A model generated the notes under the pieces. It saw only the letters and a list, made by a program, of their open reading frames with translations, was not told the DNA's origin and did not search any database. 64,000 bases of DNA from Candidatus Rifleibacteriota bacterium (GTDB lineage Bacteria > Muiribacteriota > Ozemobacteria > Ozemobacterales > Ozemobacteraceae): positions 2,769 through 66,768 of the forward strand of contig JAAYVD010000112.1 of assembly GCA_012517355.1 (NCBI GenBank), read 5' to 3'. The stretch's first letter is position 1. Each line of letters opens with the position of its first letter. A program made the translations under genes and the position numbers. Positions 2,976 through 64,000 of this stretch are shown here, in pieces.

Positions 2976-3051
2976 AAACCCCGTGCGTTGAGCGAGCCGG
3001 GCGTTTCGCCCCACCATCCCGACGAAGGGGCCCTTCCGACGTCGTGTCGGG
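2976..3051 (+). repeat. Degenerate copy of 81-bp palindromic repeat family (intergenic, between convergent genes)
   Basis: gggcgtttcgccccaccatcc...aaggggcccttccgacgtcgtgtcgg matches the 35880-35960 copy. Confidence 0.8.
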
Positions 3052-17061: not shown

Positions 17062-19176
17062 TCAGGGGGCCGCGGGGGCCGTGGCAGCGTCTGCGGCTGC
17101 GTCGCGAGGGGCCACCGGGGCGGTGGCAGAGGCTGGGGCGGCCGGGACGGCCGCCGAAGCGGTGGGCAGGGCGGGCGGGCCGACGAAGGTGATGAGGCCG
17201 GCGGGCGGCGGGGAGATCCGTTCGTGGCGCTTCAGCCAGGCCAGGAGGGCATCGCGCATCAGGAATCCGGTCTCCTGGCGGCGGGCCGCTTCCCGAAAGA
17301 GTTCGCGGCCGTTCTGGTTGCCGTCGGCCAGGTAGTTGATGGTGACGACCCGATAGTCCTTCGCCGCTTCCAGCGGCCGGCCGCCGACGCGGATGTCGCG
17401 CACCTCGCGCCGGTCGAGATCGTAGGTGGCAGTGAGGCCGGCGTATTGGTAGCCGGTGATCTGCCCGTAGTTGGCGCAGATGAACTGCAGCATCGCCTGC
17501 ACCGCCGCCCCGTTCATCGTGAGGACGACCAGCGTGTTGTCGAAGGGCAGCACCTGGAACACCCGGCCCATGGTGACCGGGCCGGCAGGAATGGCGTCGC
17601 GGATCGAGCCCGAATTCATGATGGCCAGGTCGGCCCCGGTGAATTCACGCATCGTCTCGCAGATGAAGGTGCCCAGGGGCAGGTCGCGCTCGTGCTTCTC
17701 CACCTCGGGGTAGGGCAGGTCCTCCAGGCAGGTGCCGACGATCTGGGTGGTCTGGGCGCGGATCCGTTCCTCGTATTTCGAAACCAGGCGGGCCACGGGG
17801 GAGTCGAGCGGCACCGTGACCGAGGCGTCGATCGGGACCAGGCGGCCGGACCAGGCCTGCAGACCGGCGGGGCCGAACCCCAGGTCGAGCCGGCCAAGGT
17901 AGTAGCCCCATTTGAACGCCTGCACCACCAGGGTACCCACGGGGCGGGAGCCGCCGGCCGGTCGCGGCCCGCCCACCACCACGGTGGGTTCGGCCTTCAC
18001 CAGCACCGGGCTCTCGAGATAGGTGTTGGTGTGACCGCCGATGATCACGTCGAGGCCGGGCAGGTCGGCGGCCAACTGCTGGTCGCCCTCGTAGCCGGAA
18101 TGGGAAAGGAGGACGACGAGGTCGGCGGACGGCCGCAGCCTGGCCAGCAAAGGGGCCAGAGCCTCCCGGGGTTCGACGAACTCGTACCCCTGCCGGCGGT
18201 TCTCGGGGATGACCGACCAGGCCTCGCTGCCGATGCAGCCCAGGACGGCGATCTGGCGGCCGGCCCGCTCGAACAGGCGGTAGGTGGGGAAGACCGGCCG
18301 GCGGGTGTCGGCGTGCAGGATGTTGGCGCACAGCAGGGGGAACCCGGCAGTCTTGTACTTTTCTATCAGATGTGTCATGCCATCGTCGAGTTCGTGGTTG
18401 CCCATGGTGGTGGCATCGTAGCCCATGAGAGCGAATGCGGCGAGGTCGACCTCCCCCTTGAAGAAGGTGTAGAACGAGGTGCCCTGGAAGATGTCGCCCC
18501 CGTCGAACAGCAGCACGTGGGGCTCGGCGGCGCGGATGGCGCGGATGACCTCGGCGCGGCGGGCGATGCCGCCCAGGTCCTTGCCGAAGGCGGGCATGTC
18601 GAAGGGAAGGAGGTGGGCGTGGGTGTCGTTGGTGTAGAGGATGGTCAGGGTGGCGACGTCAGGCCGCGGCACCGCGGTGGGGCTGGCCACGGCGGCGGCG
18701 GAACCCGGCCCCCTGGCGGTGCTGCCGGGCGGCGGGGCGGGCAGGGGCGGCGGCACCGGGACACCGGGCGCGGCGGGGACCGCTTCCGGGCCGGCGGAAG
18801 AGCCGGTCGGCCCTCTGGCGAGGCGCGTAGCGGGCAGTCCGGGCCGGCCCTCGCGGAGGCCTGGGGCTCTCTCCGACCACACATCGGTCGGGGCGGGGAA
18901 GGGAATGCCGGAGGCCGCGACGACAGCAGGAGGAATGGCGGCTCCCGCGAGGGGAGGGGCGGGCTGATCGGCGGCCAGCAGGCCGGCCAGGAGGACGAGG
19001 GGCAGGAGGGTCGTCAGGAGGATGGGCAGGGCGGGTCGCGCCACCCGGCGGGGGCGGCCGCCGGGGAACCCACTGGTGATGAGCGGAACGGACGTTTCGC
19101 GCCGGCCTTCGCGGCGGCCAAGGGGCCCTTCCGACATCGTGCCGGTCGGGGGGGCAGACGGGCGGCGGCACACCAT
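17062..19176 (-). CDS. Exported bifunctional metallophosphatase/5'-nucleotidase (UshA-like) with long low-complexity N-terminus
   Basis: ILYTNDTHA, DGGDIFQG, MGNHELD, LSHSG, IIGGHTN, NSGSIR..PFDN; GGAGGAGGTGA RBS before ATG 19176. Confidence 0.9.
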   Translation of the reverse strand: MVCRRPSAPPTGTMSEGPLGRREGRRETSVPLITSGFPGGRPRRVARPALPILLTTLLPLVLLAGLLAADQPAPPLAGAAIPPAVVAASGIPFPAPTDVWSERAPGLREGRPGLPATRLARGPTGSSAGPEAVPAAPGVPVPPPLPAPPPGSTARGPGSAAAVASPTAVPRPDVATLTILYTNDTHAHLLPFDMPAFGKDLGGIARRAEVIRAIRAAEPHVLLFDGGDIFQGTSFYTFFKGEVDLAAFALMGYDATTMGNHELDDGMTHLIEKYKTAGFPLLCANILHADTRRPVFPTYRLFERAGRQIAVLGCIGSEAWSVIPENRRQGYEFVEPREALAPLLARLRPSADLVVLLSHSGYEGDQQLAADLPGLDVIIGGHTNTYLESPVLVKAEPTVVVGGPRPAGGSRPVGTLVVQAFKWGYYLGRLDLGFGPAGLQAWSGRLVPIDASVTVPLDSPVARLVSKYEERIRAQTTQIVGTCLEDLPYPEVEKHERDLPLGTFICETMREFTGADLAIMNSGSIRDAIPAGPVTMGRVFQVLPFDNTLVVLTMNGAAVQAMLQFICANYGQITGYQYAGLTATYDLDRREVRDIRVGGRPLEAAKDYRVVTINYLADGNQNGRELFREAARRQETGFLMRDALLAWLKRHERISPPPAGLITFVGPPALPTASAAVPAAPASATAPVAPRDAAADAATAPAAP
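18809..18891 (+). repeat. Highly degenerate 81-bp repeat copy inside the 5'-nucleotidase CDS (antisense to gene)
   Basis: ggccctctggcgaggcgcgtagcgggc...ggggctctctccgaccacacatcggtcgg aligns loosely with the consensus. Confidence 0.5.
19066..19149 (+). repeat. 81-bp repeat copy inside the 5' end of the 5'-nucleotidase CDS (antisense to gene)
   Basis: cgtttcgcgccggccttcgcggcggccaaggggcccttccgacatcgtgccggtcgg. Confidence 0.85.
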
Positions 19177-33269: not shown

Positions 33270-34259
33270 GTGACCGGCCCGATCGACTTCGACGAGATGC
33301 TGGCGAAGGTCGCCCCCGACAACCCGAATCGTTCCTTTCTGCTCAAGAGCCTGATCGAGATCCGCGCGGGCCAGGACGACCAGGCCCTGATGACCAGGCT
33401 GATGACCGGCCTCGTGATGAAATACGCCGAGAGCGAGCGGCAGCTGAACCGGCTCAACGCCGAACTGCGCGAGAAACAGGAGCACCTCGACGCCGACCTC
33501 AAGGCCGCCGCGGTCATCCAGACGGCGCTGCTGCCCAAGCCCCTGCCCGCCGCCTCGAACGTGCGCGCCGCCTGGAAGTTCGTTCCCTGCCAGAGCATCG
33601 GCGGCGACGTGTTCCTGCTCACGCCGCTGGGCAAGCGGTATCTGATGGTGGCCGTCGTCGACATCAGCGGTCACGGGGTACCCTCGGCCATGGTGACCGT
33701 CTCGGTCTGCCAGTTCCTGCAGCCCCAGGCGGGAACGGTCTTCCAGCCCGGGGCCGGCCCCGACGGCGCGGTGGTGCCACCCGGCCAGGTGCTGGCCTCG
33801 CTCGACCGCGAGTTTCCCTATTTCCGTTTCAAGAAGACCTTTTCGATCTTCTACGGCGTGCTCGACCGCGTCACCGGCCGGTTCACCTTCGCCAACGGCG
33901 GGCACCCGCAACCCTTCCTGCAGACCCCCGACGGCGCCCTCACCACCCTCGAGGAGCACGGCCCCATCATCGGCATGGGCCTGGGCTCGACCTTCCCGGA
34001 AGGGTCGCTCACCCTCTCCCCCGGCAGCCGCCTGACCTTCTACTCCGACGGCCTGACCGAATGCCGCAACCCCTCAGGGGAGCTGTTCGGTGACGACCGG
34101 GTGCGCGACCTGCTCGCCGCGCACCACGCCCTGCCCCTCCCCGACCTCGCCGCCGCGATCCATGCCGGGGCCAGCAGATTCGTGGCGGGAGCGGGTTTTC
34201 CCGATGACTTCACCCTCGTCCACCTGGAGTTCGCCGGCCCGCCCGCCTCCCCCGCTTGA
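33270..34259 (+). CDS. PP2C/SpoIIE-type (RsbU-like) serine phosphatase
   Basis: AAVIQTALLP, IGGD, DISGHGVPSA, ANGGHP, YSDGLTE, DDFT; short coiled-coil N-terminus. Confidence 0.93.
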   Translation: MTGPIDFDEMLAKVAPDNPNRSFLLKSLIEIRAGQDDQALMTRLMTGLVMKYAESERQLNRLNAELREKQEHLDADLKAAAVIQTALLPKPLPAASNVRAAWKFVPCQSIGGDVFLLTPLGKRYLMVAVVDISGHGVPSAMVTVSVCQFLQPQAGTVFQPGAGPDGAVVPPGQVLASLDREFPYFRFKKTFSIFYGVLDRVTGRFTFANGGHPQPFLQTPDGALTTLEEHGPIIGMGLGSTFPEGSLTLSPGSRLTFYSDGLTECRNPSGELFGDDRVRDLLAAHHALPLPDLAAAIHAGASRFVAGAGFPDDFTLVHLEFAGPPASPA

Positions 34260-37141
34260 GGGACGGCGACCAGCAGCACGTCCCCGCCATGGTCACCGCC
34301 ACGCCAGCGGCATCGCCGGGGATGTTTCCTCAGACGGCCTTCCCCCACCCCTCCGGCACGGTTCGGCAGTTCGTCGCCGCCCGGTGGGAGTTGCAGGGAA
34401 CCGGTGGGAAACCGCCCCAACACCCGCGAGATCCGGGCCGCCCGGCGACCCGGGTCAGTGGCCCCGGCCGGCCGTGGCCGGAAGCGGGTTTATGGCGTGC
34501 GGGCTGGCTGGCCTTGTCACTGGTGTGCCTGATCCTGCTGGCCGACCCCGCCCTCGTCGCGGCTGCCGAAGGCCGGGGAACGGAGGGGGACCAACTGCAG
34601 ACCGGTCCCTGGTGGGGCATCGGGCCGCTGGCGGCGACCGCCTCGCCGGCCGGTCTGCTCTCTTCAGCGGGCAGGCCAGACCCGGGGCGTGATCATCCCG
34701 GCCGGGACGGCCCGACGCGCTGGCGCGAGGTTCCCGCCTGGGCCGACCCCGGGGAGATCCACGACGTGGCCGGAGAACTGGCCACGGGCAACGGCCCCGC
34801 CTCGGCCGCGGCTTTCCAGGTTCTCTCCAGCCCGGCCGGCGGCGAGGCCTGGTGGTATGTCAGCGCGGACGACCTGTTCGAAGGCTGGGTGAACGGGGAA
34901 CGGGTGGCCTGGCAGGACCGGCCCCTGGACTGCCGGCCCCGGCGACGGGCGATCCGGATCCGCTTGCGCCCGGGGGCCAACACGGTCTTCCTGGCCCTGG
35001 CGAACGTCGATGGGCGTTTCTGCTTCGCCAGCACGTTCGAGGCCATCCCCGACCTCCCCGGGGAGGTGGTCCGGCTGCGGCGGACCATCGGGCGGTGGCC
35101 CCGCGTGTTCGACCGCGAGGCCGCCCTGGCACTGCTCGGGTATCTGCGGGGAACCCCTCTGCCGGAGTCGGCCTTTCCCTATTACGATTCGGAGTTCATG
35201 CGGTCGATGACCGAACCCGGCGAAGAGATCGGGCGGCTGCAGGACGACCTGGACCAGCCGGGGACCGGGGCCCTGCGTCCGTCGAGGTTGTTCCGGCTGG
35301 CGGAGGTCATTCGCGACGCCGGGTTGGCGGAAGAGGCGTCGACCTGGCTGCTCCACCTTCTGGCCGGGCGATTCGCGGCCTCTCTCGCGGGCGTGGCCGG
35401 GGGGACGGTCCCAGGCAGGGATCCGGCGGGGAAGGCCGTGGGGGCGGACGGCCCCTCGGCGGGGCGCGAAACGGATGATTCGCGCCGCCATCCGTGGGGG
35501 CAAAGGGGCCCTTCCGACATCGGGCCGGTCGACCCCCTGGTTGGGCGTGAGCGGGGTGGCACGCCCCGCCAACCGGGGCGCGGAGGGGACCCGGACGAGA
35601 TGGGGCCGGACCGGACGGCGGCGGATTTCGGCCCGGTCGTACAGCAGACGCCCTGGCTGCTGGCGGGACCGGGGGCCGACCTGACGCGGGCGGTGGCCGC
35701 CAGTCTGCTGGGGCCGGACGGCACCGTCGACTGCCGCCGCCCCCTGCCGGGTCTCGCCGGCCAGAGGTCAGACTCCCTTCCCGACCCTCGACCGGATCGG
35801 CCCCTTCGCGATGCCCGAAGCGGGCGTTTCGCGCCGCCATCCGTGGCGACCAAGGGGCCCTTCCGACATCGTGTCGGTCGGCCCCTTTGCGGTGCGCGAA
35901 ACTGGCGTTTCGCGCCGCCATCCGTGGCGGCAAAGGGGCCCTTCCGACATCGTGTCGGTCGGGACGAGGGAACGGAGCCGGGGGCGGGCGCCGAACGCGC
36001 CCGGGGTGCGGATTCCTGGCGGTTGGTGGCCTCCTGGACGACGGAGACGGGGCCCCACGACATCGCCGACGTGGTAGCCGGGCCGACCGACGGGCAGGCG
36101 GTCCTGCTCACGCGGACGCTCTTCGCCTCCGCCGAGGTGGACGCCTGGGTCTTCCTGGCCGCCGACGACTGGCTGGACGTCTGGCTCAACGGCCGCCACC
36201 TGTTCGCCCCCAACGGGCGGCCCAGCGCCTTCCTCCCCCGCCAGCAGGTGGTGAAGGTGCGTTTGCGGCGGGGGGTGAACCCTTTGCTCCTGCGGGTCGA
36301 GAACCATGCGGGGGCCTGCGCCTTCGCCCTGGAGGTGCATCCGCTGGCCGACTGGCCGGCGCGGAGCGCTCGGCTGGTCCGGCTCATCCGGTCGTTTCCG
36401 CCCGCCTTCGACCCGGACCTGACCGCCGGGGTGCTCCCCTTTCTCGCCTGGCCGCGTCTTCCCCGTCGCCTGGCGGACGCCTATCGCGAGCTGACCTTCC
36501 ACCCGATCGCCGACCCCGAGGCGGAGATCCGGTTCCTGCAGCAGGCGCTGCGCACCGCGACCGAGCCGATAGCCCTCGATGCCGCCCGGTTCCGCCTGGC
36601 CGAACTCTGCGGGCAACTCGGACTGGGTGGGATCCTGGGGCGGCACCTGCGGTCCCAGCGGGACCGGGCCGGACTCGACGGGCCCCGCCTGTGGCGCGGG
36701 GCGCTGGCGGTGTTCCACTCCGGCCGGTTCGCCGAGGGGATCGGGGAGCTCCAGCGGGTGGCGGACCTGTTCCCGGAACTGGGGGCCGCCCGCCTGGGCC
36801 TGGCCGAGGTGCTCTCCTGGAGGGCCTGGCAGACGCTGGATTACCGGGTGCGGGACCAGGCCTGGGAGGCCTGGCAGCGGGTGGACCGGGCGGACCGCGC
36901 CCGACCGGCCGCCCTGGCCGCCCAGGCCGGCCTGTGGTACCTGTTCGCCCGGAAGGACACGGCCAACCGGTGGTTCGAAGCCGCCCTGCGGGCTGACCCG
37001 CGGAACCTGTCCGCCTGGCTGACCCGGTGGGAGGTCCGCTCACCCTTTCCCGACCAGGCGGCGGAAGGGGCCTATCTGCGGGAGTTCGCGGTCTGGGACG
37101 ACCGGACCGCCCGCGAATGGTACCGGGAGATCGAACCGTGA
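34256..37141 (+). CDS. Exported hypothetical protein: two copies of a beta-sandwich (ADD..W-x-NG) plus helical module, C-terminal TPR; start uncertain
   Basis: YVSADDLFEGWVNGE..IRLRPGAN repeated as FLAADDWLDVWLNGR..VRLRRGVN; signal-like WLALSLVCLILLA; 4-bp overlaps with both neighbours. Confidence 0.7.
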   Translation: MRDGDQQHVPAMVTATPAASPGMFPQTAFPHPSGTVRQFVAARWELQGTGGKPPQHPRDPGRPATRVSGPGRPWPEAGLWRAGWLALSLVCLILLADPALVAAAEGRGTEGDQLQTGPWWGIGPLAATASPAGLLSSAGRPDPGRDHPGRDGPTRWREVPAWADPGEIHDVAGELATGNGPASAAAFQVLSSPAGGEAWWYVSADDLFEGWVNGERVAWQDRPLDCRPRRRAIRIRLRPGANTVFLALANVDGRFCFASTFEAIPDLPGEVVRLRRTIGRWPRVFDREAALALLGYLRGTPLPESAFPYYDSEFMRSMTEPGEEIGRLQDDLDQPGTGALRPSRLFRLAEVIRDAGLAEEASTWLLHLLAGRFAASLAGVAGGTVPGRDPAGKAVGADGPSAGRETDDSRRHPWGQRGPSDIGPVDPLVGRERGGTPRQPGRGGDPDEMGPDRTAADFGPVVQQTPWLLAGPGADLTRAVAASLLGPDGTVDCRRPLPGLAGQRSDSLPDPRPDRPLRDARSGRFAPPSVATKGPFRHRVGRPLCGARNWRFAPPSVAAKGPFRHRVGRDEGTEPGAGAERARGADSWRLVASWTTETGPHDIADVVAGPTDGQAVLLTRTLFASAEVDAWVFLAADDWLDVWLNGRHLFAPNGRPSAFLPRQQVVKVRLRRGVNPLLLRVENHAGACAFALEVHPLADWPARSARLVRLIRSFPPAFDPDLTAGVLPFLAWPRLPRRLADAYRELTFHPIADPEAEIRFLQQALRTATEPIALDAARFRLAELCGQLGLGGILGRHLRSQRDRAGLDGPRLWRGALAVFHSGRFAEGIGELQRVADLFPELGAARLGLAEVLSWRAWQTLDYRVRDQAWEAWQRVDRADRARPAALAAQAGLWYLFARKDTANRWFEAALRADPRNLSAWLTRWEVRSPFPDQAAEGAYLREFAVWDDRTAREWYREIEP
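35450..35530 (+). repeat. 81-bp repeat copy in-frame within CDS
   Basis: ggcccctcggcggggcgcgaaacggatgattcgcgccgccatccgtgggggcaaaggggcccttccgacatcgggccggtc. Confidence 0.9.
35799..35960 (+). repeat. Two tandem 81-bp repeat copies in-frame within CDS
   Basis: Units 35799-35879 and 35880-35960; peptides RPLRDARSGRFAPPSVATKGPFRHRVG and RPLCGARNWRFAPPSVAAKGPFRHRVG. Confidence 0.95.
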
Positions 37142-40100
37142 CCCGCGCGGCTCCCCCGGGCACCGCCCCGGTCGTTCCCCCGGTCGCTTCCCCGGTCGCT
37201 TCCCCGGTCGTGTCGCCTTCCGCTTCCCCGGACACGCGCCTGGGCGTTTCCCCGGCCGACTCCCCGGCCCCCCTCCAAGCGCCCACCGCTGTGGACGCCC
37301 CCGCCGCGTTCCCGGCGGACCTGTCCCCGCTCCCGACCGACCCGTCGTCGGCCGGCGCCCCGGGCGGCCCGGGGCGGGGGAACGGGCCGCCGGTTGCGGA
37401 CCGGGCCCAGGGGTCCCCGCCCCGCGGGCCGCGCGCCGCCTGGATCTCACTGGTCATGAACTGGGGGGTCCCGTTCCTGCTGAGTCTGCTGCCGCTGGTG
37501 GTCCTGCACCTCGCGGCCGGAGAGGAGCAGGCCAGGCGCGGAGCGGATGCGCGCCGGGAGCGGCGGGAACGGGTCCGCCTCCAGGCCGACCATCTGCGCC
37601 GGGCCTCGTCCTTCCCGTTCTGGGCCGAGCGGGCCGCCCGCCTGCTCAAGCGGGGCGCCCTGGCCGGGCTGGCCGGGACCCAAAGCCGGGGGCAGAACCC
37701 CGGCCACGCCGCCGCCCCGCCCCACACCGGGGACGTCTCCGGAATCGGCCCACCCCCAGCCAAGGGCGAAGCGGCCGTGCCGATCCGTCATCCGTGGCCC
37801 CCACCAGGAGATCCTTCAGACATCGGGTCGGGTGGGACGGGCCATTTCGGCGGACCGCGGTCGCCCCCTTCCCCAACCGGAACCGCCGCCACTCCCGACC
37901 CCTCATCGGCCGAAATCGGGAGGCCGGTCGGGGTGCCGTTTTCCGGCGGGCGGCCAGGCCGGTTCCTCGTGCCCACCCCCGCCCCGGGAGGCGGGCCGGC
38001 AACCAACCGCGCCGGGGTGGCGGAAGCTCTGGCCAGGGGCCTGGGGACGGCCCTGCGTCGCCTGCAGAGATCGGAACCCCGGCCAGGGGCGGCCACGCCG
38101 TTTCGCGGCAGGCGGGGCGGCCAGGGCATCCTGCCGACCTCTGAGCGGTCGAACCTGGCGGGGTGCCAGGTATGGGCCGTTGCCTTTCCCACCGGGAATC
38201 CGGCCGAGGGGGTGGAACCCTGCCGGGCCCCTCCCCTCCGCCAGGATTTCTCCGCCCTGATGACCGGCCTGTTGCAGGACATCGGCCGGCAGCAGGCGAT
38301 CGAGGCGGAGGAGGGAAAGGCGGCGCGCCACGCCGGGGGGGGCAAGAATGACGAGAGCGGTGGGGGAAGCGAGAGGCCGGCCGGGCCGTTCGACGCCACC
38401 CGGCTGCGGAGGCTGGAGGCAGGCTTCGGTGAGGGGTTGTCCGCCGACCTGTTCACCGGCAGCCACCGCGGAACCGGCTTTCCCGTGCTGTTCCGCGGAA
38501 TTCCCCACATCATGGTCTGGGACCTCGTCTTCTTCCGGGAACGGACGGTCGGGGCCTTCCTGGTGCTGCTGCCGCTGCCCGACGAGGCCGGCCACGCCGC
38601 GCTGCAGTTGACCCTGCGGTACTGGCCGAAAGGCGGGTTCCGGCCGGCGTTTCTGCCCATGCCGACCGAGCGGCGGGGGATCCTGCCTCCCCCCCTGCTC
38701 CACCCCGACCTGGTCCGGGCCCCCGTCCTGGCCGACATCGAGCGGCTTCGTCGCCAGATGCGGATCTGGCAGCCGGCCGGCACCCGGTTCGAGGGCACCC
38801 GGGTGGGGCTGCTGGCCCCCTTCACCGGCCGGCTGGTCCGGTTGCCGGCCGCCGCGGGATGGTGGGGCATGGTCACCCCCCTCGATCCGCTGACGGGACA
38901 CCTGGGACTGCTGGTCGGACGCTTTCCCGACCTGCCCCCCTCCGCCCTGGATCTGTTCCGCGGGATGGCCGACATGGCCTGGATCTTCGTCTGGATCATG
39001 GTCGCCATCCGGGCCGCCCTGGTGGGGACGCGCCCGGCCGGCGTCCGGCGTCAGGCCACCCTGTGGCTGCTCGGCGTCACCGGCATGCCGGTGGTGCTGG
39101 GGATCATGGTCGGCGTCCAGCTGAACGGAGACCTGCGTTCCAACCGGCTCGAGCAGCTCGAACGCGACCTGGAACGGGCGATGGGCGACCTGGAGACCGG
39201 CGCCAACCGGCTCAACGACCGCATCGTCCAGCAGTGCAAGGAGCGGTTCCATGAGGGGGGGTTCCGGGCGGCCCTGCGGCAGGCCATCGCCAACCCAGCC
39301 GCCCGGGAAGGGTTCCTGCGCGACCTGGCCGCGGGCTTCCGGCGGCACGGGCTGCCCATCTCGGGCCTCCGGGTGATGGGACGGGACGGCCAGGCCATGG
39401 AATCCTTCGCGCCCTGGCTGCGGCAATTGTCCATCCGGCAGCTGCAGGCAAGCCTGCAGGATGCCTGGGACCTGTATCTCGCCGGGCCCGATGGGGGCCG
39501 GAAAAGGCCGACCACCACCCTCGCCAGGTGGCAGCAGAACGTCTTTGCCGTCAAGGGGGCCGAGGAACAGCCGCTCGCCTGGCAGTCGGGCAACCGCAAG
39601 TTCTTCCTCTGGCGGATGATCATACAGGAGAAGGGCCGGCCGTTCTGCCAGGTGGCGGTGGTCTGGAGCCACGAGAAGCTGTACCGGGCCTACCTCGAGC
39701 GGGCGGTGCAGGGACCGGGGCTGTTCTCCGGCCGGACCGACCTCTCCCTGTCGGTCTATCTGCCGCAGGGGGACGACCTCGAGGAGGTTGGTGCCTCCGC
39801 CAATCTGGTGGCCGGGCGCGAGGATCTGCGGCGAGTGGCCCGGGCAGCGGTGCGGGCGAAGATGCGCCGGATCACGGAGGATGCCCTGACGGTGGGTTTC
39901 CCGAGCGAGCGCCTGCCGGGCTACGTCTTCCTGGGCCAGGCGTCGCTCGCGCCCCTGCGGGCGGAGCTGTGGCGGGAATGGCTCGGCATCGGCATCGTCA
40001 CCCTCGGGCTGTTCGCCCTCGTGCTCGCGGCGGCGCGGCTGCTGGGGTTCCGGCTGGCCGCGCCGGTGGTGCGCATGACCGCGGAACTGCGGCGGGTGGC

Positions 40101-43100
40101 CGCCGGAGACTACGCGGCCCGGGTCGGCGACGACCGCCGGGACGAGCTGGGACAGGCCGGCCGGGCGCTGGACCGCATGACCGGCTGGCTGGCCGAGCGG
40201 CAGGAGATGAGCCGGTTCGTCTCCTCCCAGGTGCTGGACGTGGTGGCCGCCGGGGACTACCGGGGGGCCATGGCCGGCACCCAGCGCGAGGTGGCGATCC
40301 TGATCTCGGACATCCGGTCGTTCACCACCCTGTCGGAGGAGCATCCGGCCCGGGATATCTTCGCCCTGGTGAACGGGCACATGGAGGCCATGACCCGCGC
40401 CATCCAGGCGGAAGGCGGGATGATCGACCGGTTCGTCGGGGACGCCGTGCAGGCGGTCTTCTACGCGGCCGAGGCCGGAACGCCGGGGGTGGGCGGCCCC
40501 GCCGACCGCGCGATCCGGGCGGCCCGGGCGATGCGCAAAGCGCATCTGGCCAGGATCGAGGCCCGCCGGCGGGAAGGGTTGTTCCCCTACGAGATCGGCA
40601 TCGGCATCGAGCAGGGAACGGTGGTGGCCGGCGTCATGGGCGACGGGCAGGCCCGGCTGGACTTCACGGTGCTGGGAGAGCCGGTACAGGCCGCGGCCGA
40701 ACTGGAAGCCGGCTCGAAGCACGGCACCGCCACGAAGATCATCGTCTCCGACCTGGTCAGGCAGACCGTTGGCGAGAGTGTCCCGTGCCGCCGCCTGCCC
40801 GACGGCCACCCCGGCTGGGAACTCGCTTCGCTCGAGGAGGGCGCTCCCCCCGCCTCCCCCGCCTCCCCCGCCGTCCCCCTTCCCGATCCCGCCCCCATCA
40901 CGCCAGCCCGGCCTCCCCGCCTCCCCCGCCCTGATCCCCCCACCTTCCCATCCGCCCACCACCGCACCTCCCACCTTCCCTCCCTCGCAAGGCCATCATC
41001 TCCCCAACCCGCCACGCTCCCCGCGCCTCACCCCCCGCCTCCCCACCTCGCCGCCTCCCCCTTTCCCTCCTACGGCGGCCTGCTTCCCCTGCTGGTTCTG
41101 TGGCTGGTGCCCGCCGGCCTCCTCTTTCTCGGGGCGGCGGCCCTGCGACAGGCGGGAATCCGCCAGGCGATCGGCGAGGCGAGGGACCAGGTGCGGGAAC
41201 GCCTCGGCCGGCTGGAGGGGGAGATGCGGCCGGAAACCCTGGCGGCAAGGCTGCTCGCCGGAATCGTCATCGGGGCCGGCCACCCTCGCCGGGGAACGCC
41301 GGCCGGCCCTCTGAACCCGGAGGAAGCCAACCGCCTCGGACGGGCGTTGGCCAGCGCCAACGCGAAATCTGCCGGCGCGGCGACGACGGCCAGGCCGGGG
41401 AGGCCGTCATCCGGCCGCTTTTTCGTCCTCTCCGCCCCCGCCGACATCGATCCGGGATCGGCGTGGGGGACCGAATACATGCCCAGGATCCGGCCCGCCC
41501 AGGTGCGGCTCCTGTTCCAACGCGCCCGGGGCGACTTCCCCCTGAGCCTCGACGAGGTCCGCCGATTCGCCACGATCCTCCTCATGATGGAGATCGACCC
41601 CCTGTTCACCCCCAATCGCTCCTATTTCCGCCTGTCCGACTGGTTCTACCGGTGGTTCCAGCGCTTCTTCGTCGGGCCTCGCGGGGGAGCCATCGGCCAC
41701 CACGGGTTCATCCGCAACGCCCTGCTGTCCCGCGGCAACCTGCTGCCGATGCGCTTTTGCGAAAGCGACTGGCTGATGTTCTGGCTGCCGGTCAGGCGGC
41801 AGCCCGGTGCCGGTGATGGCGGAAACCGGACCGCCCAGGAGGGGCCGGGAACGGACCGGGGACTCCCGAGAACCGGCGGCACTGGCCTCTCAGCCCGTTC
41901 AAGCCGGGATGAGGGGGATCCTGACGGGGACGGGCCCCGCCCGGAGGAAGCCCGCCAGGGGGGCATCAGCCAGGCCACGGTCATCGGAAGCGGATCGCCC
42001 GGGGCAATCCCCGCCGGCACCCCGCCAGGGCCGTACTCCCCGCCAGCCGGGGACCGGGCGGCTGCCGCGGAGGGGCCGGTGGCGGGGCTGGTATTGGCTT
42101 TCCTGCCCGGCAAGGGGCTGGCACCCGAGGCCGGCTACCGATTCCTGGCCCAGGACCTGGCCCGCCAGGGGTTTCCCGCCGCGATCGCCTGGAAGGCCGG
42201 TCGGAGACGCCGCCTCGTCCGCACGGGGGCCTTCCGGAAAGCAGGGCTGTCCGCACAAGAACCGGGCGACGCACCATTCACGCTCGAGGAGCGGGCGGGG
42301 TGGGTGGTCGGGTCGCAGGTGTCGGGGGGGCTCCGCCCCGCCCGGGTGTTCCTGGCCCGGGATTGGCACCGGCACCTGCCGTGGTCGGCACACCTGGGGA
42401 CAGCGGGGATCCTGGCCGCCGGGGGTTGGCTGCTGCTCGGGGGCTGGACGGTCTGGCGGCTGGGCCGTGGCGAACGCGGGGCCCCGGCCTCGTTGCGGGG
42501 CCTGCTGATGGGAACCTTCGCCCTGGTGGTGGTTCCCACCCTGGCCGTCGGGTTCTTCGGGGTCGAGCGGTCGCTGCTGGAGCGGGCCACCCGGCTGCGG
42601 GCCGACCGGGCCCGCGACCTGACCGACCTCCTGGCGGCGGTCGACCGCAGCCAGGACCTGGCCCTCACCTTCGCCTGCAACCTTGTGGCGACCCAGCTCG
42701 ACCGGCCGGAGTTCCTGGCCGACCTGGCCCGGTTCGAGAAAGGATGGCCACCACCCGACCGCCCCGATGCCCCGCCTCCGATGCGCTCCCTCCTGGTGGC
42801 CTGCCAGTTCCTGGGGCTGTGGCCGCGGGCCGCCGAACTGGTGTCGGTCACCGGCCTGACCGGCGGCAGCGGGCACGACCAGCGGTTTTTGGAAGCCCTG
42901 CGGTGGTTGTGGAACCGCAACCTGTCCGCCCGGCACGCCGCGGCGGGGGCCGACCTTCCCGTCTCGCAGCGGCGCGCGAACCTGGTGGTGGGGACCCAGG
43001 TGGAGGAGTTCGGAACGATCCTCCGCAGCCTGATGCCTCCCGCGGGTCTCGCGGCCTGGATGAGCGCGCCCCGCGCGGTGGTGTCGGTCAGCTCCTCTCT

Positions 43101-44448: not shown

Positions 44449-44693
44449 CGAAGGCGGCGCCGGAAGCCATCTTTCCCGCCTGGGGCAAGGTGGCTGCACT
44501 GGCCATCGGCGCCTGCTGGCGGCGGAGGGCATCCTGCCCTCTTGCCCCGCCTTGCCCCCATGGAGCCCGGGAGCGCGCCACGGCGGAGATCCTGCCGCCG
44601 GGGATTCACAGCGGCAGAACCGTCAGACCTCCGGTTCCAGAAGGTCCGTGAATCCGCCTGGCCGTGAAGACAGGATTCCGGAGCCCGACCCGT

Positions 44694-44924
44694 TCAGGGT
44701 GCCGCCGGGGCGGGAAGGTTCGACCGACCGGCCTCGGCGCTCGCCGCCGGGACCGGCGCGGGGCTGGGGGCCTGCCCATTCCGGGCCGTGATCGACCACA
44801 GCGTCTGGGTGACCACCGCCAGGCTGCTCTGGGAAAGAACAATCGACAGGACGAAGGCGAACACGAAGCACCAGAACGCCTGCCCGATCAGGATCAACCG
44901 ACGGTACCGTTCCAACTGGCTCAT
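44694..44924 (-). CDS. Small single-TM hypothetical protein
   Basis: 76 aa with hydrophobic LILIGQAFWCFVFAFVLSIVL; GAGAGGA RBS. Confidence 0.5.
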   Translation of the reverse strand: MSQLERYRRLILIGQAFWCFVFAFVLSIVLSQSSLAVVTQTLWSITARNGQAPSPAPVPAASAEAGRSNLPAPAAP

Positions 44925-45114
44925 GCAGTCCTCTCATGCGGCCGCCAAGGCCGGATTCCCGCGACACGCAGCCTTCCGCCCCGCTGGCGCGAAGCCGGAA
45001 AGGTGGCCCGGGGTCGCGGTCCGGACCATCGGCTTCCCTCATCGGCAGGTTTCCACGTTCATCCAACCCCCTCCGCCCCGATGGGCCCGCAACTACCCGA
45101 TTCCACCGGGCAAA

Positions 45115-45196
45115 GGGCCCTTTGCATGGCGCAAACGGGTGGTTCCCGCCGCCATCCATGGCGACGAGTGGGAATGGCCGGTCTCGCGTCGGTCGG
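45115..45196 (+). repeat. Degenerate 81-bp repeat copy (intergenic)
   Basis: gggccctttgcatggcgcaaacgggtggttcccgccgccatccatggcg...cgcgtcggtcgg. Confidence 0.7.
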
Positions 45197-45228
45197 TGCA
45201 AGTGGCCGGTCGGGGGGACCCGGGGTGG

Positions 45229-46434
45229 TCAGTAGGGCGGCAGCAGGCGCCGGAATCCGTGGGCGAGGACCACGGCCAGGAAGAAGAGGTTGCGGGCCAG
45301 CCGCGCTCCCCACCAGGGCCACTGCACGGTGGTCGCTCCCGGTTCGCCGGCGACGGAGGCGGCGACCTCTTCCAGGTAGGCCGGTGAGCACGGCCAATCC
45401 GCCAGGCCTGCCACCCAGTCGGCGGGAAACCCTGCCGGGCCGACGCCCGCCCCCAGGATGCCGCCCAGGATGGCACCGGTCGTGTCGGCATCCCCGCCGG
45501 CGCCGATCATGGCGGAGAGGGCGGTCCGGGGGTCGTCGCCCCAGCGGAACCAGCACAGGCAGACGGCAGGCACCGTATGCAGGATGTAGCCCGACACTCC
45601 ATGCGGCGACCCCAGATCCGCCGCAAAAGCGGCCACCGTGGCGGCGGGGGAGTCGGCTTCCCTCGTCGCGTTGGGAGCGACCGGGAATTCCCCTGAACCG
45701 GAGAACGAAGCCGGCGATACCGCCGGGCCGGAGGCCGGAACCTGGGGGCCGCCCGGTGCAGGTGGGGGAAGGGAGGCCCCGGCGGCCGCGGCCTGGCGAA
45801 GGGCCTCCAACAGCGTGGGACCCGCCGGGTGGCCGGCCAGGGCGGCCGCCACTTCGTCCACGAAGGCGGCGGGATCGGGCCGGCCCCCGCCCTGGCGCAT
45901 GGCCTGACGGGCCGCCAGGGCGATGACCAGGGCCCCGGCCTCGGCCCGGGGATCGGTGTGGGTCAGGCGAGTCGACACCCGCACCAGCTCGGCAAGGCGG
46001 GCGGGGTCGTCGCCGGCCACCACCCCGAGGACGGTGGCCCGCATGGCCGGCCCGTTCCCGGCCGAGACGACCCCGGCGGTGGCCGGCGACCAGCCCAGCC
46101 AGAGTTTTCCCAGGGCCCGCAGAGTGGCCCAGCCCACCCCGGCGGGCAGGGCGGCCACCCACCAGCGCAGGTAGCCGGCCAGGGCCAGGCCGAAGGCGGC
46201 CGGCTCGCCGCCGCTGTCCCGACAGGCGAGGGCGGTCAGCACGGCATGCTCGGTGTCGTCGGACACCATGCCCCGGCCGAACAGGAACCGGTGGCGGAGG
46301 GGCGGCGGGAACAGGCGGGCCAGGCGCCGGGGCGACAGGTTCTCGCAGGGCAGGCCCAGGCTGTCGCCGAGAGCCTGTCCGAGAAGGCAGCCGGCCAGGG
46401 CGCGGCGACGATGGTCGCTGGCCGGGAGGCTCAC
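45229..46434 (-). CDS. ADP-ribosylglycohydrolase (DraG/ARH family)
   Basis: GQALGDSLG, VSDDTE, SAGNGPAMR, LTH, GGDADTTGAILG. Confidence 0.92.
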   Translation of the reverse strand: MSLPASDHRRRALAGCLLGQALGDSLGLPCENLSPRRLARLFPPPLRHRFLFGRGMVSDDTEHAVLTALACRDSGGEPAAFGLALAGYLRWWVAALPAGVGWATLRALGKLWLGWSPATAGVVSAGNGPAMRATVLGVVAGDDPARLAELVRVSTRLTHTDPRAEAGALVIALAARQAMRQGGGRPDPAAFVDEVAAALAGHPAGPTLLEALRQAAAAGASLPPPAPGGPQVPASGPAVSPASFSGSGEFPVAPNATREADSPAATVAAFAADLGSPHGVSGYILHTVPAVCLCWFRWGDDPRTALSAMIGAGGDADTTGAILGGILGAGVGPAGFPADWVAGLADWPCSPAYLEEVAASVAGEPGATTVQWPWWGARLARNLFFLAVVLAHGFRRLLPPY

Positions 46435-56416: not shown

Positions 56417-56499
56417 CCGACCGCCACGAGATCGGTCGTCCCCCCATGCCGTTCCGGGTGGCGACGCGAACCCTCCGTTCCGCGCCCGGCACGGGGGCC
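56417..56499 (-). repeat. Degenerate 81-bp repeat copy, minus orientation (further decayed copies probably at 56290-56410)
   Basis: Reverse complement ggcccccgtgccgggcgcggaacggagggttcgcgtcgccacccggaacggcatgggggg...tcgtggcggtcgg. Confidence 0.65.
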
Positions 56500-60051: not shown

Positions 60052-60136
60052 GGCCCCTTTGCCGTGCACGAAACAGGCGTTTCGCGCCGCCATCCGTGGC
60101 GGCAAAGGGGGGCCCTTCCGGCATCGCGTCGTTCGG
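60052..60136 (+). repeat. Well-conserved 81-bp repeat copy (intergenic)
   Basis: ggcccctttgccgtgcacgaaacaggcgtttcgcgccgccatccgtggcggcaaaggggggcccttccggcatcgcgtcgttcgg. Confidence 0.92.
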
Positions 60137-63363: not shown

Positions 63364-64000
63364 CCGGGAGGTCCCATGGCCGGTTCCCCCCCGCCCCGGC
63401 CGCCCGGACTTTCCCGGGGGCCCACGTCAAACGGGCCGACCCCCTCGCCGGAATTCCCGCTCAGCGATCCGAAGCTTTTCCGACGAACAGGGATTGCCGC
63501 AGGCCTCGACCCCATCGACAAGTCAGCCCGAAGCAGCCCGGAGAACCACTTCAGCGCCCATGGTGGGAATTGGTGCCCGCATCGGGCCGATCACCCCGTC
63601 CGGCCGGGTCGACACGACCCAGGTCTTCGCCTCACTGGCCCTGGCCCCGGGGATCGACGACTTCCGGTGCGGGAACGTCGGGCGGGAGCCGCTCGCCAAG
63701 GGCTGCGGCACCTTCCCGCGGTATCGCCTGCCGCGGGCCGCCGGCGCGCGGGAGCTTCCCGGAACGCGGGCCGCCCCTCCAGCCCTCACGCCTGGAAGGC
63801 AGGGGGCGACCGCCGGGAAGGATCTCTCACTTTGTCCCCGGGGGTCCTGTGTCGCCCGACACCCTGGCATTCCGCCTGACGGCCATGGGTTGGGCCTGAA
63901 GGCCATGGGTTGGTTTTCCCCTGCCATCCCGAGATGCCGGTCGACAGGCCGGAGTCTCTCTCTTCCAGCCCATCCCCCTGACCTCGATCTTGTCTGTCGG

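What the first reader, a model, noticed from the sequence alone, without database searches (positions are those of the whole stretch)
35450..35960. 81-bp multi-hairpin repeat, open in all six frames, inserted in-frame in proteins
Seen: unit 35880-35960 has an 11-bp outer stem (GGCCCCTTTGC/GCAAAGGGGCC) enclosing two hairpins (GCGCGAAAC/GTTTCGCGC; CGCCA/TGGCG), followed by a further hairpin (CCGACA/TGTCGG). It is 27 codons long with no stop triplet on either strand. Inside the 34256-37141 CDS it is read in two frames (..FAPPSVAAKGPFRHRVG twice; ..SRRHPWGQRGPSDIG once), in the linker between the duplicated modules. Established: Rickettsia palindromic elements set a precedent for palindromic repeats that add peptide segments to proteins. 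Inference: an analogous lineage-specific selfish element creating new protein sequence.
Basis: partly seen in the sequence, partly recalled or inferred. Interest (0 to 1): 0.8.

Follow-up and report, generated by a model that had tools for sequence, protein, structure and literature searches.

The report
Mobile 81-base repeat inside genes
An 81-base, self-folding selfish DNA repeat occurs in hundreds of copies in an uncultured sludge bacterium, mostly between genes, but has also landed in frame inside dozens of intact genes, adding 27 amino acids each time, much like the palindromic elements of Rickettsia.

Summary
The unit at 35880-35960 belongs to a dispersed family: 758 copies in 611 arrays, 0.8% of a 7.1 Mb, 68% GC genome. 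It folds as described and has no stop in any of the six frames.

Most copies are intergenic. Only 22% of arrays lie in called genes, against 80% of random 81-mers. Still, 92 arrays in 74 genes have coding signal on both sides in one open frame.

Insertion is shown directly. A congener carries an exact 81-nt copy inside an intact LigT-like gene and another in a 15-nt operon spacer, and this genome has the empty sites. A DegT/ArnB-type aminotransferase has a clean insert 8 residues before its catalytic lysine.

Copies sit 3' of GG[A/T]C-like tetranucleotides, form head-to-tail arrays, and show at most a 2-nt GG duplication. No mobilising enzyme was found; the only Y1 transposase gene is flanked by a different repeat.

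No Rfam family, plasmid, phage or full-text sequence match was found. Translation is inferred, not shown.

In-frame palindromic repeats are already known (RPEs, intragenic REPs), so this is a new variant of a known kind. This scan noted the same family before on other pieces of this genome (e1-691604, e1-1154196).

The parts
35880..35960 (+). Full 81-nt repeat unit, second of a head-to-tail pair. Read in element frame +3 by the host ORF.
   Evidence: nhmmer 87.6 bits, model 1-81. Fold -50.8 kcal/mol, z -5.57. Translation.
35799..35879 (+). Full 81-nt repeat unit, first of the pair, same frame (+3).
   Evidence: nhmmer 73.3 bits, model 1-81. An independent metagenome contig (X2 record 12) spans 35272-35889 with 0 differences.
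35450..35530 (+). Older, more diverged 81-nt copy. Read in element frame +1. The 5' flank is GGAC.
   Evidence: nhmmer 65.0 bits. Sequence. Translation.
35533..35580 (+). Possible remnant of a second copy directly after the older one (weak).
   Evidence: nhmmer --max gives E = 0.64, model 3-50. The repeat finder D1 aligns 35449-35617 to 35798-35966 at 73% over 169 nt.
34256..37141 (+). Host ORF: 961 aa from the first TTG; the public gene call is 875 aa and my caller starts at 34523. It reads through all three copies. It is an orphan protein with a TPR-like C-terminal part.
   Evidence: ORF list. Codon log-odds in frame are +0.23 and +0.53 bits/codon for 34256-35449 and 35961-37141, and negative in the other five frames. 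GC3 is 0.85-1.0 on both sides. Only itself was found among 5.8 billion proteins. TPR is a lead only.
34700..35449 (+). Module 1 of the host protein.
   Evidence: BLASTP against module 2: 30% identity over 200 aa, E = 6e-21.
35960..37138 (+). Module 2 of the host protein plus its C-terminal extension.
   Evidence: Feature search points to TPR proteins, 0.92-0.97, lead only.
60052..60133 (+). Intergenic copy between divergent genes.
   Evidence: 69.4 bits. Context. No copy at the corresponding spacer of G001, but that spacer is unalignable.
56419..56498 (-). Decayed intergenic copy between two co-directional genes.
   Evidence: 33.4 bits. The G002 spacer is about 57 nt against about 270 nt here.
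19069..19147 (+). Copy overlapping the called 5' end of a minus-strand gene.
   Evidence: 55.7 bits. Context.
2980..3050 (+). Decayed intergenic copy between convergent genes.
   Evidence: 39.6 bits. Context.
45118..45194 (+). Decayed intergenic copy.
   Evidence: 35.3 bits. Context.
37759..37831 (+). Weak, decayed copy inside the neighbouring 2386-aa ORF.
   Evidence: 20.6 bits, E = 0.0028. Context.

Best explanation
The 81-nt unit is a non-autonomous, selfish mobile repeat of an uncultured, high-GC sludge bacterium and a few relatives.

Shown:
- It is a sharply bounded family with a strong three-hairpin fold.
- It is dispersed genome-wide, mostly between genes, and forms head-to-tail arrays.
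- It inserts as an exact 81-nt block next to GG-rich sites. The 5' flank is GG[A/T]C-like, GG follows the 3' end, and there is no duplication beyond that GG.
- A minority of copies lie inside open reading frames without breaking them.

Inferred:
- In-gene copies survive because the unit is 27 codons long and stop-free in every frame. An insertion then only adds a 27-residue loop, and selection keeps those that fall in linkers or tolerant loops.
- The three copies at 35450-35960 are such insertions, one older and one young tandem pair, in the linker between the two paralogous modules of an orphan protein.
- The element's own GGTC end recreates the preferred target, which would explain the head-to-tail arrays.
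- The enzyme is unknown. A single-strand (HUH/Y1-type) or GG-crossover (serine-recombinase-type) mechanism acting in trans is my best guess, at about 40% for either together. The rest of the statement I hold at about 0.8.
For: Family and census:
- 758 nhmmer hits, 543 near full length, strands 378+/380-.
- 611 arrays: 491 singles, 97 doublets, 20 triplets, 2 quadruplets, 1 quintuplet. Only 5 have mixed orientation. Spacing is 81 nt in 27, 84 in 12 and 87 in 4 of 69 measured neighbours.
- The copies total 57,448 nt, 0.81% of the genome.

Location:
- 134 of 611 arrays lie inside called genes, against 16,063 of 20,000 random 81-mers.
- In the flank-only test, 42 of 611 arrays have both flanks coding in the same frame and open through, against 2,529 of 5,000 random points.
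- Same frame outnumbers different frame on the same strand 42 to 6.
- 92 arrays in 74 genes have at least 20 bits of codon log-odds on each side.
- 45 of 45 full in-ORF copies are 3n long, against 145 of 164 intergenic copies.

Insertion shown directly:
- L014 carries an 81-nt copy in an intact LigT-like gene. G000 (C57) reads ..HVTIGFVDP-A-RQPDV.. and the other genome has 28 residues in place of the A. The family is PF13563, 53.6 bits.
- L114 carries an exact 81-nt copy in a 15-nt stop-to-start spacer, and the G000 flanks abut.
- Both empty sites read GGGC|GG.

Conserved enzyme host:
- In the DegT/ArnB-type aminotransferase, query residues 177-214 align to chain residues 177-180 of 1mdo, just before SFHxxK.
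- The insert is absent in genus g6 (G008). It is present but decayed in three congeners, whose flanks are 66-90% identical.

Target:
- GG at -4/-3 in 186 of 241 arrays.
- GGWC in 84 of 241 (35%), against 1.4% background.
- GG after the last copy in 322 of 381.
- In-ORF and intergenic arrays have the same flanks.
- Frame use is far from uniform: per array +1 33, +2 7, +3 5, -1 27, -2 19, -3 1, p = 1e-10. It follows the codon phase of GGWC in genes: expected 36.6/7.0/4.3/32.3/25.5/2.2 against 39/8/6/29/25/1 copies, p = 0.85.

Structure:
- 86.2% of cells are paired, against 37-45% when the partner is slid.
- 48 compensatory cells, against 29.9 +/- 4.2 in shuffles.
- Over 436 distinct copies, 316 against 210 +/- 11.

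Selfish rather than exapted:
- In-ORF copies are no older than intergenic ones: 46.6 against 43.5 bits median, p = 0.30.
- They show no codon-position signature.

Spread is patchy: 5 of 51 genomes of the family-level clade have it, and G002 of the same genus has none.
Against: - No mobilising gene was found. The only Y1_Tnp match (C109) is flanked by a different 27-nt inverted repeat, and the nearest 81-nt copies are 6.6 kb away.
- No TnpB was found. The Y2_Tnp search is uninformative because its control was silent.
- The single split-copy candidate brackets no transposase.
- The target model is not clean. The simple GGWC model was chosen after seeing the flanks. Models that add the 3' GG fail (p = 7e-6 and 1e-4). 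A flank weight matrix built from intergenic arrays predicts frame use only partly: left flank p = 0.01, left plus right p = 3e-5. Some peptide-level selection, or dependence between target positions, therefore remains possible.
- Only 2 of 23 distinct congener sites gave exact empty sites; the rest are shared, unalignable or unplaced.
- Covariation is concentrated in two or three pairs of the outer stem. It may reflect subfamilies rather than continuing selection.
- Translation or transcription of any copy is not shown.
- The window's host gene is an orphan, so its reality rests on codon statistics alone.
Confidence: 0.8

Rival explanations
1. The element is mainly a host-serving cis element, such as an mRNA-stabilising or terminating hairpin or a binding site for a nucleoid protein or gyrase, as proposed for REPs. 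Its in-gene copies would then be by-products.
For: The fold is strong, with some compensatory change in the outer stem. In co-directional spacers the element is more often opposite to the genes: 157 against 101 arrays, p = 6e-4. Its strand also follows local GC skew, OR 2.7, p = 1e-6. REPs are thought to act as RNA elements (PMC3733652, abstract and passages seen).
Against: Use of spacer types roughly follows spacer length. Tandem, divergent and convergent spacers hold 262, 89 and 76 arrays, against 583, 252 and 144 kb. There is no T-run after the hairpins. Wobble types are nearly symmetric between strands, 677 against 572. A congener, G002, has no copies at all. Orthologous spacers differ freely in copy number: 1 against 3, 1 against 2, present against absent.
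Confidence: 0.1
2. The in-gene copies have been taken over by the host as useful peptide modules, such as flexible linkers or interaction loops. Selection on the peptide would then explain the biased frame use.
For: Frame use is strongly non-uniform, and a flank weight matrix does not fully explain it (p = 0.01 to 3e-5). The rare frames -3 and +2 each encode two cysteines. The DegT insert site has stayed occupied across a genus.
Against: By codon position, substitution rates and GC of in-ORF copies equal those of intergenic copies read in the same virtual frame. In-ORF copies are no more conserved. The DegT inserts of congeners are unrecognisably diverged and differ in length. The hosts are unrelated proteins.
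Confidence: 0.06
3. The repeats at 35450-35960 are not inside a real gene. The ORF would be two neighbouring genes or pseudogene pieces that are bridged only because the element has no stops.
For: The host is an orphan with no Pfam domain. The 540-nt linker has no coding signal: -0.69 to 0.00 bits/codon. The locus lies at the edge of a 12-kb segment absent from G002.
Against: No stop occurs in frame between module 1 and module 2, so a ribosome translating module 1 must read through the copies. Both modules have clear in-frame coding signal. A comparable two-module ORF (HAMP-cyclase) is a single 2240-aa frame in G002, which lacks the element. Clean in-gene insertions exist elsewhere.
Confidence: 0.12
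4. The repeat is an assembly or binning artefact.
For: The genome is a 184-contig draft, and the congener's contigs often break at copies.
Against: Only 5 copies lie within 100 nt of the 368 contig ends. Contigs from two other studies reproduce 35158-35836 (X1) and 35272-35889 (X2) with 0 differences. The same family is present in four other genomes.
Confidence: 0.01

Closest known systems
Rickettsia palindromic elements (RPEs; Ogata et al. 2000, 2002). Known to me here only through passages of PMC10969869, PMC3733652 and PMC3184786.
   Same: Small, palindromic, non-coding-looking repeats dispersed in a genome. Many are inserted in frame in unrelated, apparently functional genes and add a peptide segment.
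   Different: No shared lineage: this is a free-living, high-GC sludge bacterium. The unit is shorter, 81 nt against about 105-150. It forms head-to-tail arrays. About four fifths of arrays are intergenic. Copies are used in all six frames rather than as one conserved peptide. Sequence similarity to RPEs was not tested, because no RPE sequence was on hand.
REP / REPIN / BIME elements with RAYT transposases, including GTAG- and CGTC-tagged families (Di Nocera et al. 2013, PMC3733652; passages seen).
   Same: GC-rich palindromic repeats, mainly extragenic and sometimes intragenic. A conserved tetranucleotide lies next to a hairpin, and there is no long target duplication.
   Different: REPs are 20-40 nt single hairpins, typically in inverted pairs, and flank their RAYT gene. 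Here the unit is 81 nt with three hairpins, and 115 of 120 multi-copy arrays are purely direct. No GTAG or CGTC tag is conserved. The only RAYT-like gene is flanked by a different repeat.
Mycobacterial interspersed repetitive units (MIRUs; Supply et al. 1997, as summarised in PMC3184786; passages seen).
   Same: Units of 40-100 bp in direct tandem arrays within operon spacers of a high-GC bacterium. They carry open reading frames that run into the neighbouring genes.
   Different: The paper gives about 40-50 MIRU loci, against 611 here. MIRUs are not reported there as internal in-frame inserts in enzymes. No sequence relation was tested.
MITEs with intragenic in-frame copies, such as ERIC and QMITE1 of Coxiella (review PMC10969869, passages seen; PMC5896051, listing and start of abstract only).
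   Same: Non-autonomous small mobile repeats that can fuse in frame with host ORFs.
   Different: Classical MITEs have terminal inverted repeats and target-site duplications. Here the inverted arms are at positions 1-11 and 51-61, followed by a 20-nt tail. The two exact empty sites show at most a shared GG.
IS200/IS605-type (HUH Y1) and IS607-type (serine recombinase) insertion. Their properties are recalled from memory, not from any call.
   Same: Insertion next to a short specific sequence, no sizeable target duplication, and hairpins near the ends. Crossover at GG is a recalled trait of IS607.
   Different: No cognate transposase with these ends was found in this 96%-complete genome.

Membership tests
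RPE (Rickettsia palindromic elements) | Sequence membership in one of the RPE families. | not testable with these tools
   No RPE sequences or models were available. Rfam gave no hit for 35300-36100 at E <= 1.
RPE (Rickettsia palindromic elements) | Palindromic repeat inserted in frame in otherwise intact protein genes. | tested here: met
   92 supported arrays in 74 genes. LigT-like occupied and empty pair. DegT insert against 1mdo.
RPE (Rickettsia palindromic elements) | Host genes with inserts are expressed and functional. | not testable with these tools
   Only indirect evidence. The flanks of the DegT orthologues stay 66-90% identical across the genus while the insert decays.
REP/REPIN with RAYT | Single imperfect palindrome of 20-40 nt with a GTAG or CGTC tag. 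| tested here: not met
   The unit is 81 nt with three hairpins. No conserved GTAG or CGTC appears in the per-column profile.
REP/REPIN with RAYT | Copies flank a single-copy RAYT gene. | tested here: not met
   The one Y1_Tnp match (NF047646, 64 bits, below its cut-off of 80) is flanked by a different 27-nt inverted repeat. The nearest 81-nt copies are 6.6 kb away.
REP/REPIN with RAYT | Predominantly inverted doublets. | tested here: not met
   5 of 120 multi-copy arrays have mixed orientation.
Classical MITE | Terminal inverted repeats at both ends. | tested here: not met
   The inverted arms are at 1-11 and 51-61. The 3' end is a separate hairpin plus TC.
Classical MITE | Target-site duplication. 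| tested here: inconclusive
   Two exact empty sites were found. The occupied sites share only GG at both junctions (GGC in one), which is also the start of the element. This fits a 2-nt duplication, a GG crossover, or no duplication at all.
Classical MITE | Ends match a parent IS. | not testable with these tools
   No ISfinder was available. The one split-copy candidate in the genome brackets no transposase.
IS200/IS605-derived non-autonomous element | Insertion 3' of a specific tetra- or pentanucleotide without duplication. | tested here: inconclusive
   GGWC lies 5' of 84 of 241 arrays, against 1.4% background. Both empty sites read GGGC|GG. The phase model with GGWC fits, but the PWM and GG-extended models do not.
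IS200/IS605-derived non-autonomous element | Cognate Y1 transposase recognising the element's hairpins. | tested here: not met
MIRU-like tandem intergenic units | Direct tandem arrays in operon spacers with ORFs running into the neighbouring genes. | tested here: met
   120 multi-copy arrays with a period of 81, 84 or 87 nt. The L114 copy fills a 15-nt stop-to-start spacer. This is a functional resemblance only.

The most novel reading that the evidence does not exclude
The element is a transposon shaped for harmless landing. Its length of 3n (81, 84 and 87-nt subfamilies), its lack of stops in all six frames and its exact insertion would then be selected traits. They would let it colonise coding DNA of a gene-dense genome. 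It would be moved in trans by an enzyme class not yet linked to such repeats, since no RAYT, TnpB or parent IS was found. That would make it a steady source of new 27-residue loops and linkers, about 1.5% of genes here.
Probability: 0.2. Interest if true: 0.7.

Novelty: new variant of a known kind. Interest (0 to 1): 0.5.

Why it matters
In-frame selfish repeats have been a curiosity known mainly from Rickettsia and a few REP and MITE families. This case differs in four ways.

- It is much larger: hundreds of copies, with at least 74 host genes.
- It occurs in a free-living, high-GC environmental bacterium.
- It offers exact occupied and empty pairs between congeners.
- Its hosts include conserved enzymes: DegT/ArnB-type aminotransferase, LigT-like phosphoesterase, shikimate dehydrogenase and an HI0933-like flavoprotein.

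That gives a tractable natural experiment on how proteins tolerate 27-residue insertions. It also bears on how insertion-site preference and codon phase decide which peptide is added, and on how mobile DNA creates linkers.

There is a practical side too. Such elements inflate orphan or fused ORFs, break metagenome assemblies, and add spurious similarity between unrelated proteins. In one search, most hits to the host protein were other repeat copies.

Tried and rejected
- RNAalifold on 74 mostly in-gene copies did not recover the fold: 3 pairs, -0.9 kcal/mol. Many copies are decayed, so I counted pairs on the named structure instead.
- Rfam at E <= 1 on 35300-36100: nothing.
- Full-text search for four fragments of the unit: the two 13-mers had 0 occurrences in the 10 papers listed, of 57 that hold at least one fragment. 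The listed hits to the shorter fragments were unrelated.
- An exact 27-mer in genome contigs was found only in one MAG record, in 5 contigs. In metagenome contigs it had 0 matches.
- A looser hairpin pattern gave 5 loci. Four were a generic GC hairpin and one (L108) a partial look-alike of 31 bits.
- Plasmid and phage collections, distant mode: no match.
- Public runs: no RNA holder listed. Laid contigs showed no joint that skips a copy. No listed long piece bridged 35890-36066.
- Orthologue of the host CDS: none among 30 relatives. G001's contigs do not cover window 34543-38146, and G002 lacks window 34231-46459 altogether. No empty site could therefore be shown for the three copies of the finding itself.
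- Repeat-mediated gene fusion or duplication was considered and rejected:
  - The two modules of the host are only 30% identical, while the copies are young.
  - The two-module cyclase is a single frame in G002, which has no copies.
  - The AcrB+OMF frame could not be compared, because G002's acrB is not followed by an OMF gene.
- Autonomous parent: one split-copy pair on C131 brackets only an SLT-domain ORF.
- Replication-linked orientation: the element strand follows local GC skew. But skew correlates negatively with gene strand (r = -0.40) and the origin is unknown in a draft, so this is only a hint.
- Lead from earlier notes, uvrA: the canonical uvrA (C51) is uninterrupted. A UvrA-like double paralogue (C124) has about 84 extra residues between model positions 139 and 146, including a partial copy. 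ydjC was not checked.
I could not verify this.
- Not run: structure prediction of hosts with and without the insert.
- Supplementary files of the papers were not opened.


Full report
**What is there**

The window is G000:C8:2769-66768, in a 7.11 Mb, 184-contig, 67.8% GC draft genome. Reading 35300-36100 shows two perfect head-to-tail 81-nt units at 35799-35879 and 35880-35960, and a more diverged one at 35450-35530.

An 11-bp outer stem encloses a 9-bp and a 5-bp hairpin, and a 6-bp hairpin follows. As RNA this is -50.8 kcal/mol, z -5.57, and no shuffle of 200 does as well. As DNA it is -35.4 kcal/mol, z -8.50.

The unit has no stop on either strand. The ORF 34256-37141 reads the tandem pair in one frame and the older copy in another. 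The two protein modules on either side are paralogues: 30% identity over 200 aa, E = 6e-21.

**A genome-wide family**

BLAST gave 437 HSPs. An HMM built from 146 full copies gave 758 hits at E <= 0.01. Of these, 543 are near full length, and the strands split 378 to 380. Nine hits lie in the window.

The hits merge into 611 arrays: 491 singles, 97 doublets, 20 triplets, 2 of four and 1 of five. Only 5 arrays have mixed orientation. Of 69 measured neighbour spacings, 27 are 81 nt, 12 are 84 and 4 are 87. The copies total 57,448 nt, or 0.81% of the genome.

The boundaries are sharp. Information content drops from about 2 bits to about 0.3 within a few bases of each end.

**Where the copies lie**

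I trained a codon log-odds model on 1,243 long ORFs. I used it in two ways.

The first test used only the 240 nt on each side of an array.
- 42 of 611 arrays have both flanks coding on the same strand and in the same frame, with no stop through the array.
- 6 are on the same strand in a different frame.
- 3 have divergent flanks.
- 225 have one coding flank.
- 329 have none.
- 6 are at contig ends.
- Of 5,000 random points, 2,529 were "both, same frame" and 729 "neither".

The second used a crude gene caller (5,080 genes, 85% coding).
- It puts 134 of 611 arrays inside genes, against 16,063 of 20,000 random 81-mers.
- 262, 89 and 76 arrays fall in tandem, divergent and convergent spacers. This is roughly in proportion to spacer length: 583, 252 and 144 kb.
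- 92 in-gene arrays, in 74 distinct genes, have at least 20 bits of coding score on each side.

The element is therefore mostly extragenic and about 4- to 7-fold depleted from coding DNA. A solid minority nevertheless lies in frame inside ORFs. The 42:6 excess of same-frame over different-frame flanks shows that these are not neighbouring genes that happen to be bridged. So does the fact that 45 of 45 full in-ORF copies are 3n long, against 145 of 164 intergenic copies.

**Hosts**

I scanned 60 host ORFs against Pfam.
- 13 have adenylate/guanylate cyclase domains, often with HAMP.
- 9 have SpoIIE phosphatase domains.
- Others are kinases, an AcrB-plus-OMF frame and a methyltransferase-GT2 frame.
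- 14 have no family at 1e-8.

In the large signalling proteins the copy lies between modules, as in the window. This layout pre-dates the element. The orthologue of one two-module cyclase is a single 2240-aa open frame in G002, a congener with no copies.

More telling are copies inside single-domain enzymes: DegT/ArnB-type aminotransferase, HI0933-like flavoprotein, shikimate dehydrogenase, NAD-epimerase and an RluA-type pseudouridine synthase. For the aminotransferase, alignment to solved ArnB (1mdo) leaves query residues 177-214 opposite chain residues 177-180. By position arithmetic on that alignment, this is 8 residues before the lysine of the SFHxxK motif. That this lysine binds PLP is recalled, not tested.

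The orthologue in genus g6 (G008) has no insert. The three congeners have inserts at the same place, but with different lengths and sequences. The HMM no longer recognises these; only G000's scores, at 28 bits. Their flanks meanwhile stay 66-90% identical. The gene has evidently lived with an insert for a long time.

**Direct evidence of insertion**

I compared 23 distinct occupied sites of a congener with G000. Twenty came and seven; four were duplicates.
- 2 have exact empty sites in G000.
- 7 have a copy or array at or near the same place, with copy numbers of 1 against 3 and 1 against 2 in two of them.
- 6 have no copy in G000 but unalignable spacers.
- 8 could not be placed on one contig.

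In L014 the 81 nt sit inside a 204-aa gene of the 2'-5' RNA ligase / LigT superfamily (PF13563, 53.6 bits). G000 reads ..HVTIGFVDP-A-RQPDV.., and the other genome has 28 residues in place of the A, in an open frame.

In L114 the 81 nt fill a 15-nt spacer between the stop of one gene and the start of the next.

In element orientation both empty sites read GGGC|GG. The occupied sites have GG at both junctions and nothing more in common. That leaves three possibilities open: no duplication, a 2-nt duplication, or a crossover within GG.

**Target and arrays**
- Of 241 arrays whose first copy is complete, 186 have GG at -4/-3.
- 84 have GG[A/T]C, against a 1.4% background, and 117 have GGNC, against 4.3%.
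- GG follows the last copy in 322 of 381 arrays.
- In-ORF and intergenic arrays have the same flanks.

The element itself ends in GGTC and starts with GG. A resident copy therefore offers a new target at its 3' end. This is my explanation for the head-to-tail arrays, and it is an inference.

Frame use inside genes is far from uniform. Per array it is +1 33, +2 7, +3 5, -1 27, -2 19, -3 1, with p = 1e-10 against uniform. The codon phase of GG[A/T]C within genes predicts 36.6/7.0/4.3/32.3/25.5/2.2, against 39/8/6/29/25/1 copies, p = 0.85.

That model was chosen after I had seen the flanks. Adding the 3' GG makes it fail (p = 7e-6; with GGNC, p = 1e-4). A weight matrix learned only from intergenic flanks reproduces the ranking but not the size of the bias: left flank p = 0.01, both flanks p = 3e-5.

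Target preference combined with the GC3 bias of codons thus explains the direction of the frame bias. Whether peptide-level selection adds to it remains open. The window's young pair uses the rare frame +3.

**Selfish or useful?**
- In-ORF copies are as fresh as intergenic ones: median 46.6 against 43.5 bits, p = 0.30.
- By codon position, their substitution rates and GC equal those of intergenic copies read in the same virtual frame. GC3, for example, is 0.76 against 0.75 in frame +1.
- There is thus no sign of amelioration or of selection on the peptide.

Pairing is high: 86.2% of cells, against 37-45% with slid partners. Compensatory cells exceed shuffles, at 48 against 29.9 +/- 4.2, and at 316 against 210 +/- 11 over 436 distinct copies. 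Nearly all of this comes from two or three pairs of the outer stem that define subfamilies. Wobble types barely differ between strands, 677 against 572.

The element is more often opposite to the genes in co-directional spacers: 157 against 101 arrays, p = 6e-4. Its strand follows local GC skew, OR 2.7, p = 1e-6. That fits strand-specific insertion but is confounded in a draft genome.

**Who moves it?**

This is unknown.
- The genome (96% complete) has one Y1_Tnp match. It is a RAYT-like protein: NF047646, 64 bits, below the cut-off of 80.
- That gene is flanked by a different 27-nt inverted repeat with 58 copies genome-wide.
- The nearest 81-nt copies are 6.6 kb away.
- No TnpB was found. The Y2 search had a silent control.
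- The only split copy brackets no transposase.

**Spread**

In the family-level clade, 5 of 51 genomes have matches.
- G000 and G001 have many.
- G005, of another genus, has many copies of a variant.
- G003 has 3.
- G008 has 2 weak ones.
- G002, of the same genus, 97% complete and in 60 contigs, has none.

Outside the clade:
- There was nothing in plasmids or phages.
- There was nothing convincing in JGI metagenome contigs.
- There was no Rfam family.
- There was no text match to the two longer fragments among the papers listed.
- Contigs from two other sludge studies reproduce the host linker without a difference.

**The finding's own locus**

The host ORF has clear coding signal in frame on both sides: +0.23 and +0.53 bits/codon, with GC3 up to 1.0. 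There is none in the 540-nt linker.

The protein has no homologue but itself. The public gene call of 875 aa also reads through the copies. It lies at the left edge of a 12.2-kb segment (window 34231-46459) that G002 lacks.

No stop separates the modules, so translation of module 1 must continue through the three copies. That is the basis for saying they add about 81 residues, or more if 35533-35580 is a fourth, decayed copy. It is an inference from the sequence, not a demonstration.

**Comparison with what is known**

In-frame insertion of small palindromic repeats is established for several families:
- Rickettsia RPEs;
- intragenic GTAG and CGTC REPs;
- ERIC, BOX and Coxiella QMITE1.

The sources are PMC10969869, PMC3733652 and PMC3184786, of which I saw passages, and PMC5896051, of which I saw the listing only.

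The present family works like an RPE. It is not a member of any family I could test.
- It is not a REP: wrong size, no tag, direct arrays, and no flanking of the RAYT.
- It is not a classical MITE: no terminal inverted repeats, and at most a GG duplication.
- Its tandem, ORF-bridging habit in operon spacers recalls MIRUs.

I file it as a new variant of a known kind.

This scan had already described the same family from other windows of this genome (e1-691604, e1-1154196). My work agrees with those notes. It adds the census with controls, the exact empty sites, the target and frame analysis, and the tests for exaptation.

Noticed in passing
window 34231-46459: This 12.2-kb segment holds the host CDS, a 2386-aa two-module HAMP-cyclase ORF and two more genes. 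It is missing from congener G002, where the flanking genes lie 125 nt apart on one contig. G001 has at least most of it. It looks like a lineage-specific island.
   Followed up: partly
G000:C109:4387-4713 (locus L011 1171-1962, minus strand; repeats at L011 1119-1145, 2006-2029, 2056-2082): This is the only Y1/RAYT-like transposase gene of the genome. It is flanked by its own 27-nt inverted repeat, which has 58 copies genome-wide at up to 4 mismatches, often in small clusters.
   Followed up: partly
window 63441-63579: A stretch of about 130 nt matches a dozen or so different contigs of G001 at 73-80% identity. It is probably a third dispersed repeat family.
   Followed up: no
G000:C141:14419-19101 (locus L033): AcrB (residues 5-1029) and an outer-membrane efflux protein (1379-1557) share one 1560-aa open frame. 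A signal-peptide-like segment lies after AcrB, and a repeat copy lies at residues 1122-1146 in the OMF's N-terminal linker. In G002 and G003 the AcrB frames end on their own, and G002's is not followed by an OMF gene.
   Followed up: partly
G000 loci L018-L022, L026-L028 and window 37291-44448: Many ORFs of 1800-2400 aa consist of two sensor-HAMP-cyclase modules. One has single-frame orthologues in G002 and G005 but two separate adjacent frames in G008. This looks like a lineage-specific wave of tandem fusion of signalling genes.
   Followed up: partly
DegT-type gene, G000:C19:64944-66230 (L049) and orthologues L077-L080: The insert site just before the SFHxxK motif is hypervariable within the genus. 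G003 carries an insert about 60 residues longer than the others.
   Followed up: partly
window 37152-37211: Short tandem 24/12-nt repeats (TCCCCCGG-type) lie directly after the host CDS and before the called start of the next large ORF (family D2).
   Followed up: no
whole genome G000: Local GC skew correlates negatively with gene-strand bias: r = -0.40 over 113 windows of 50 kb. The coding strand is therefore C-rich, so skew cannot simply be read as replication direction here.
   Followed up: no
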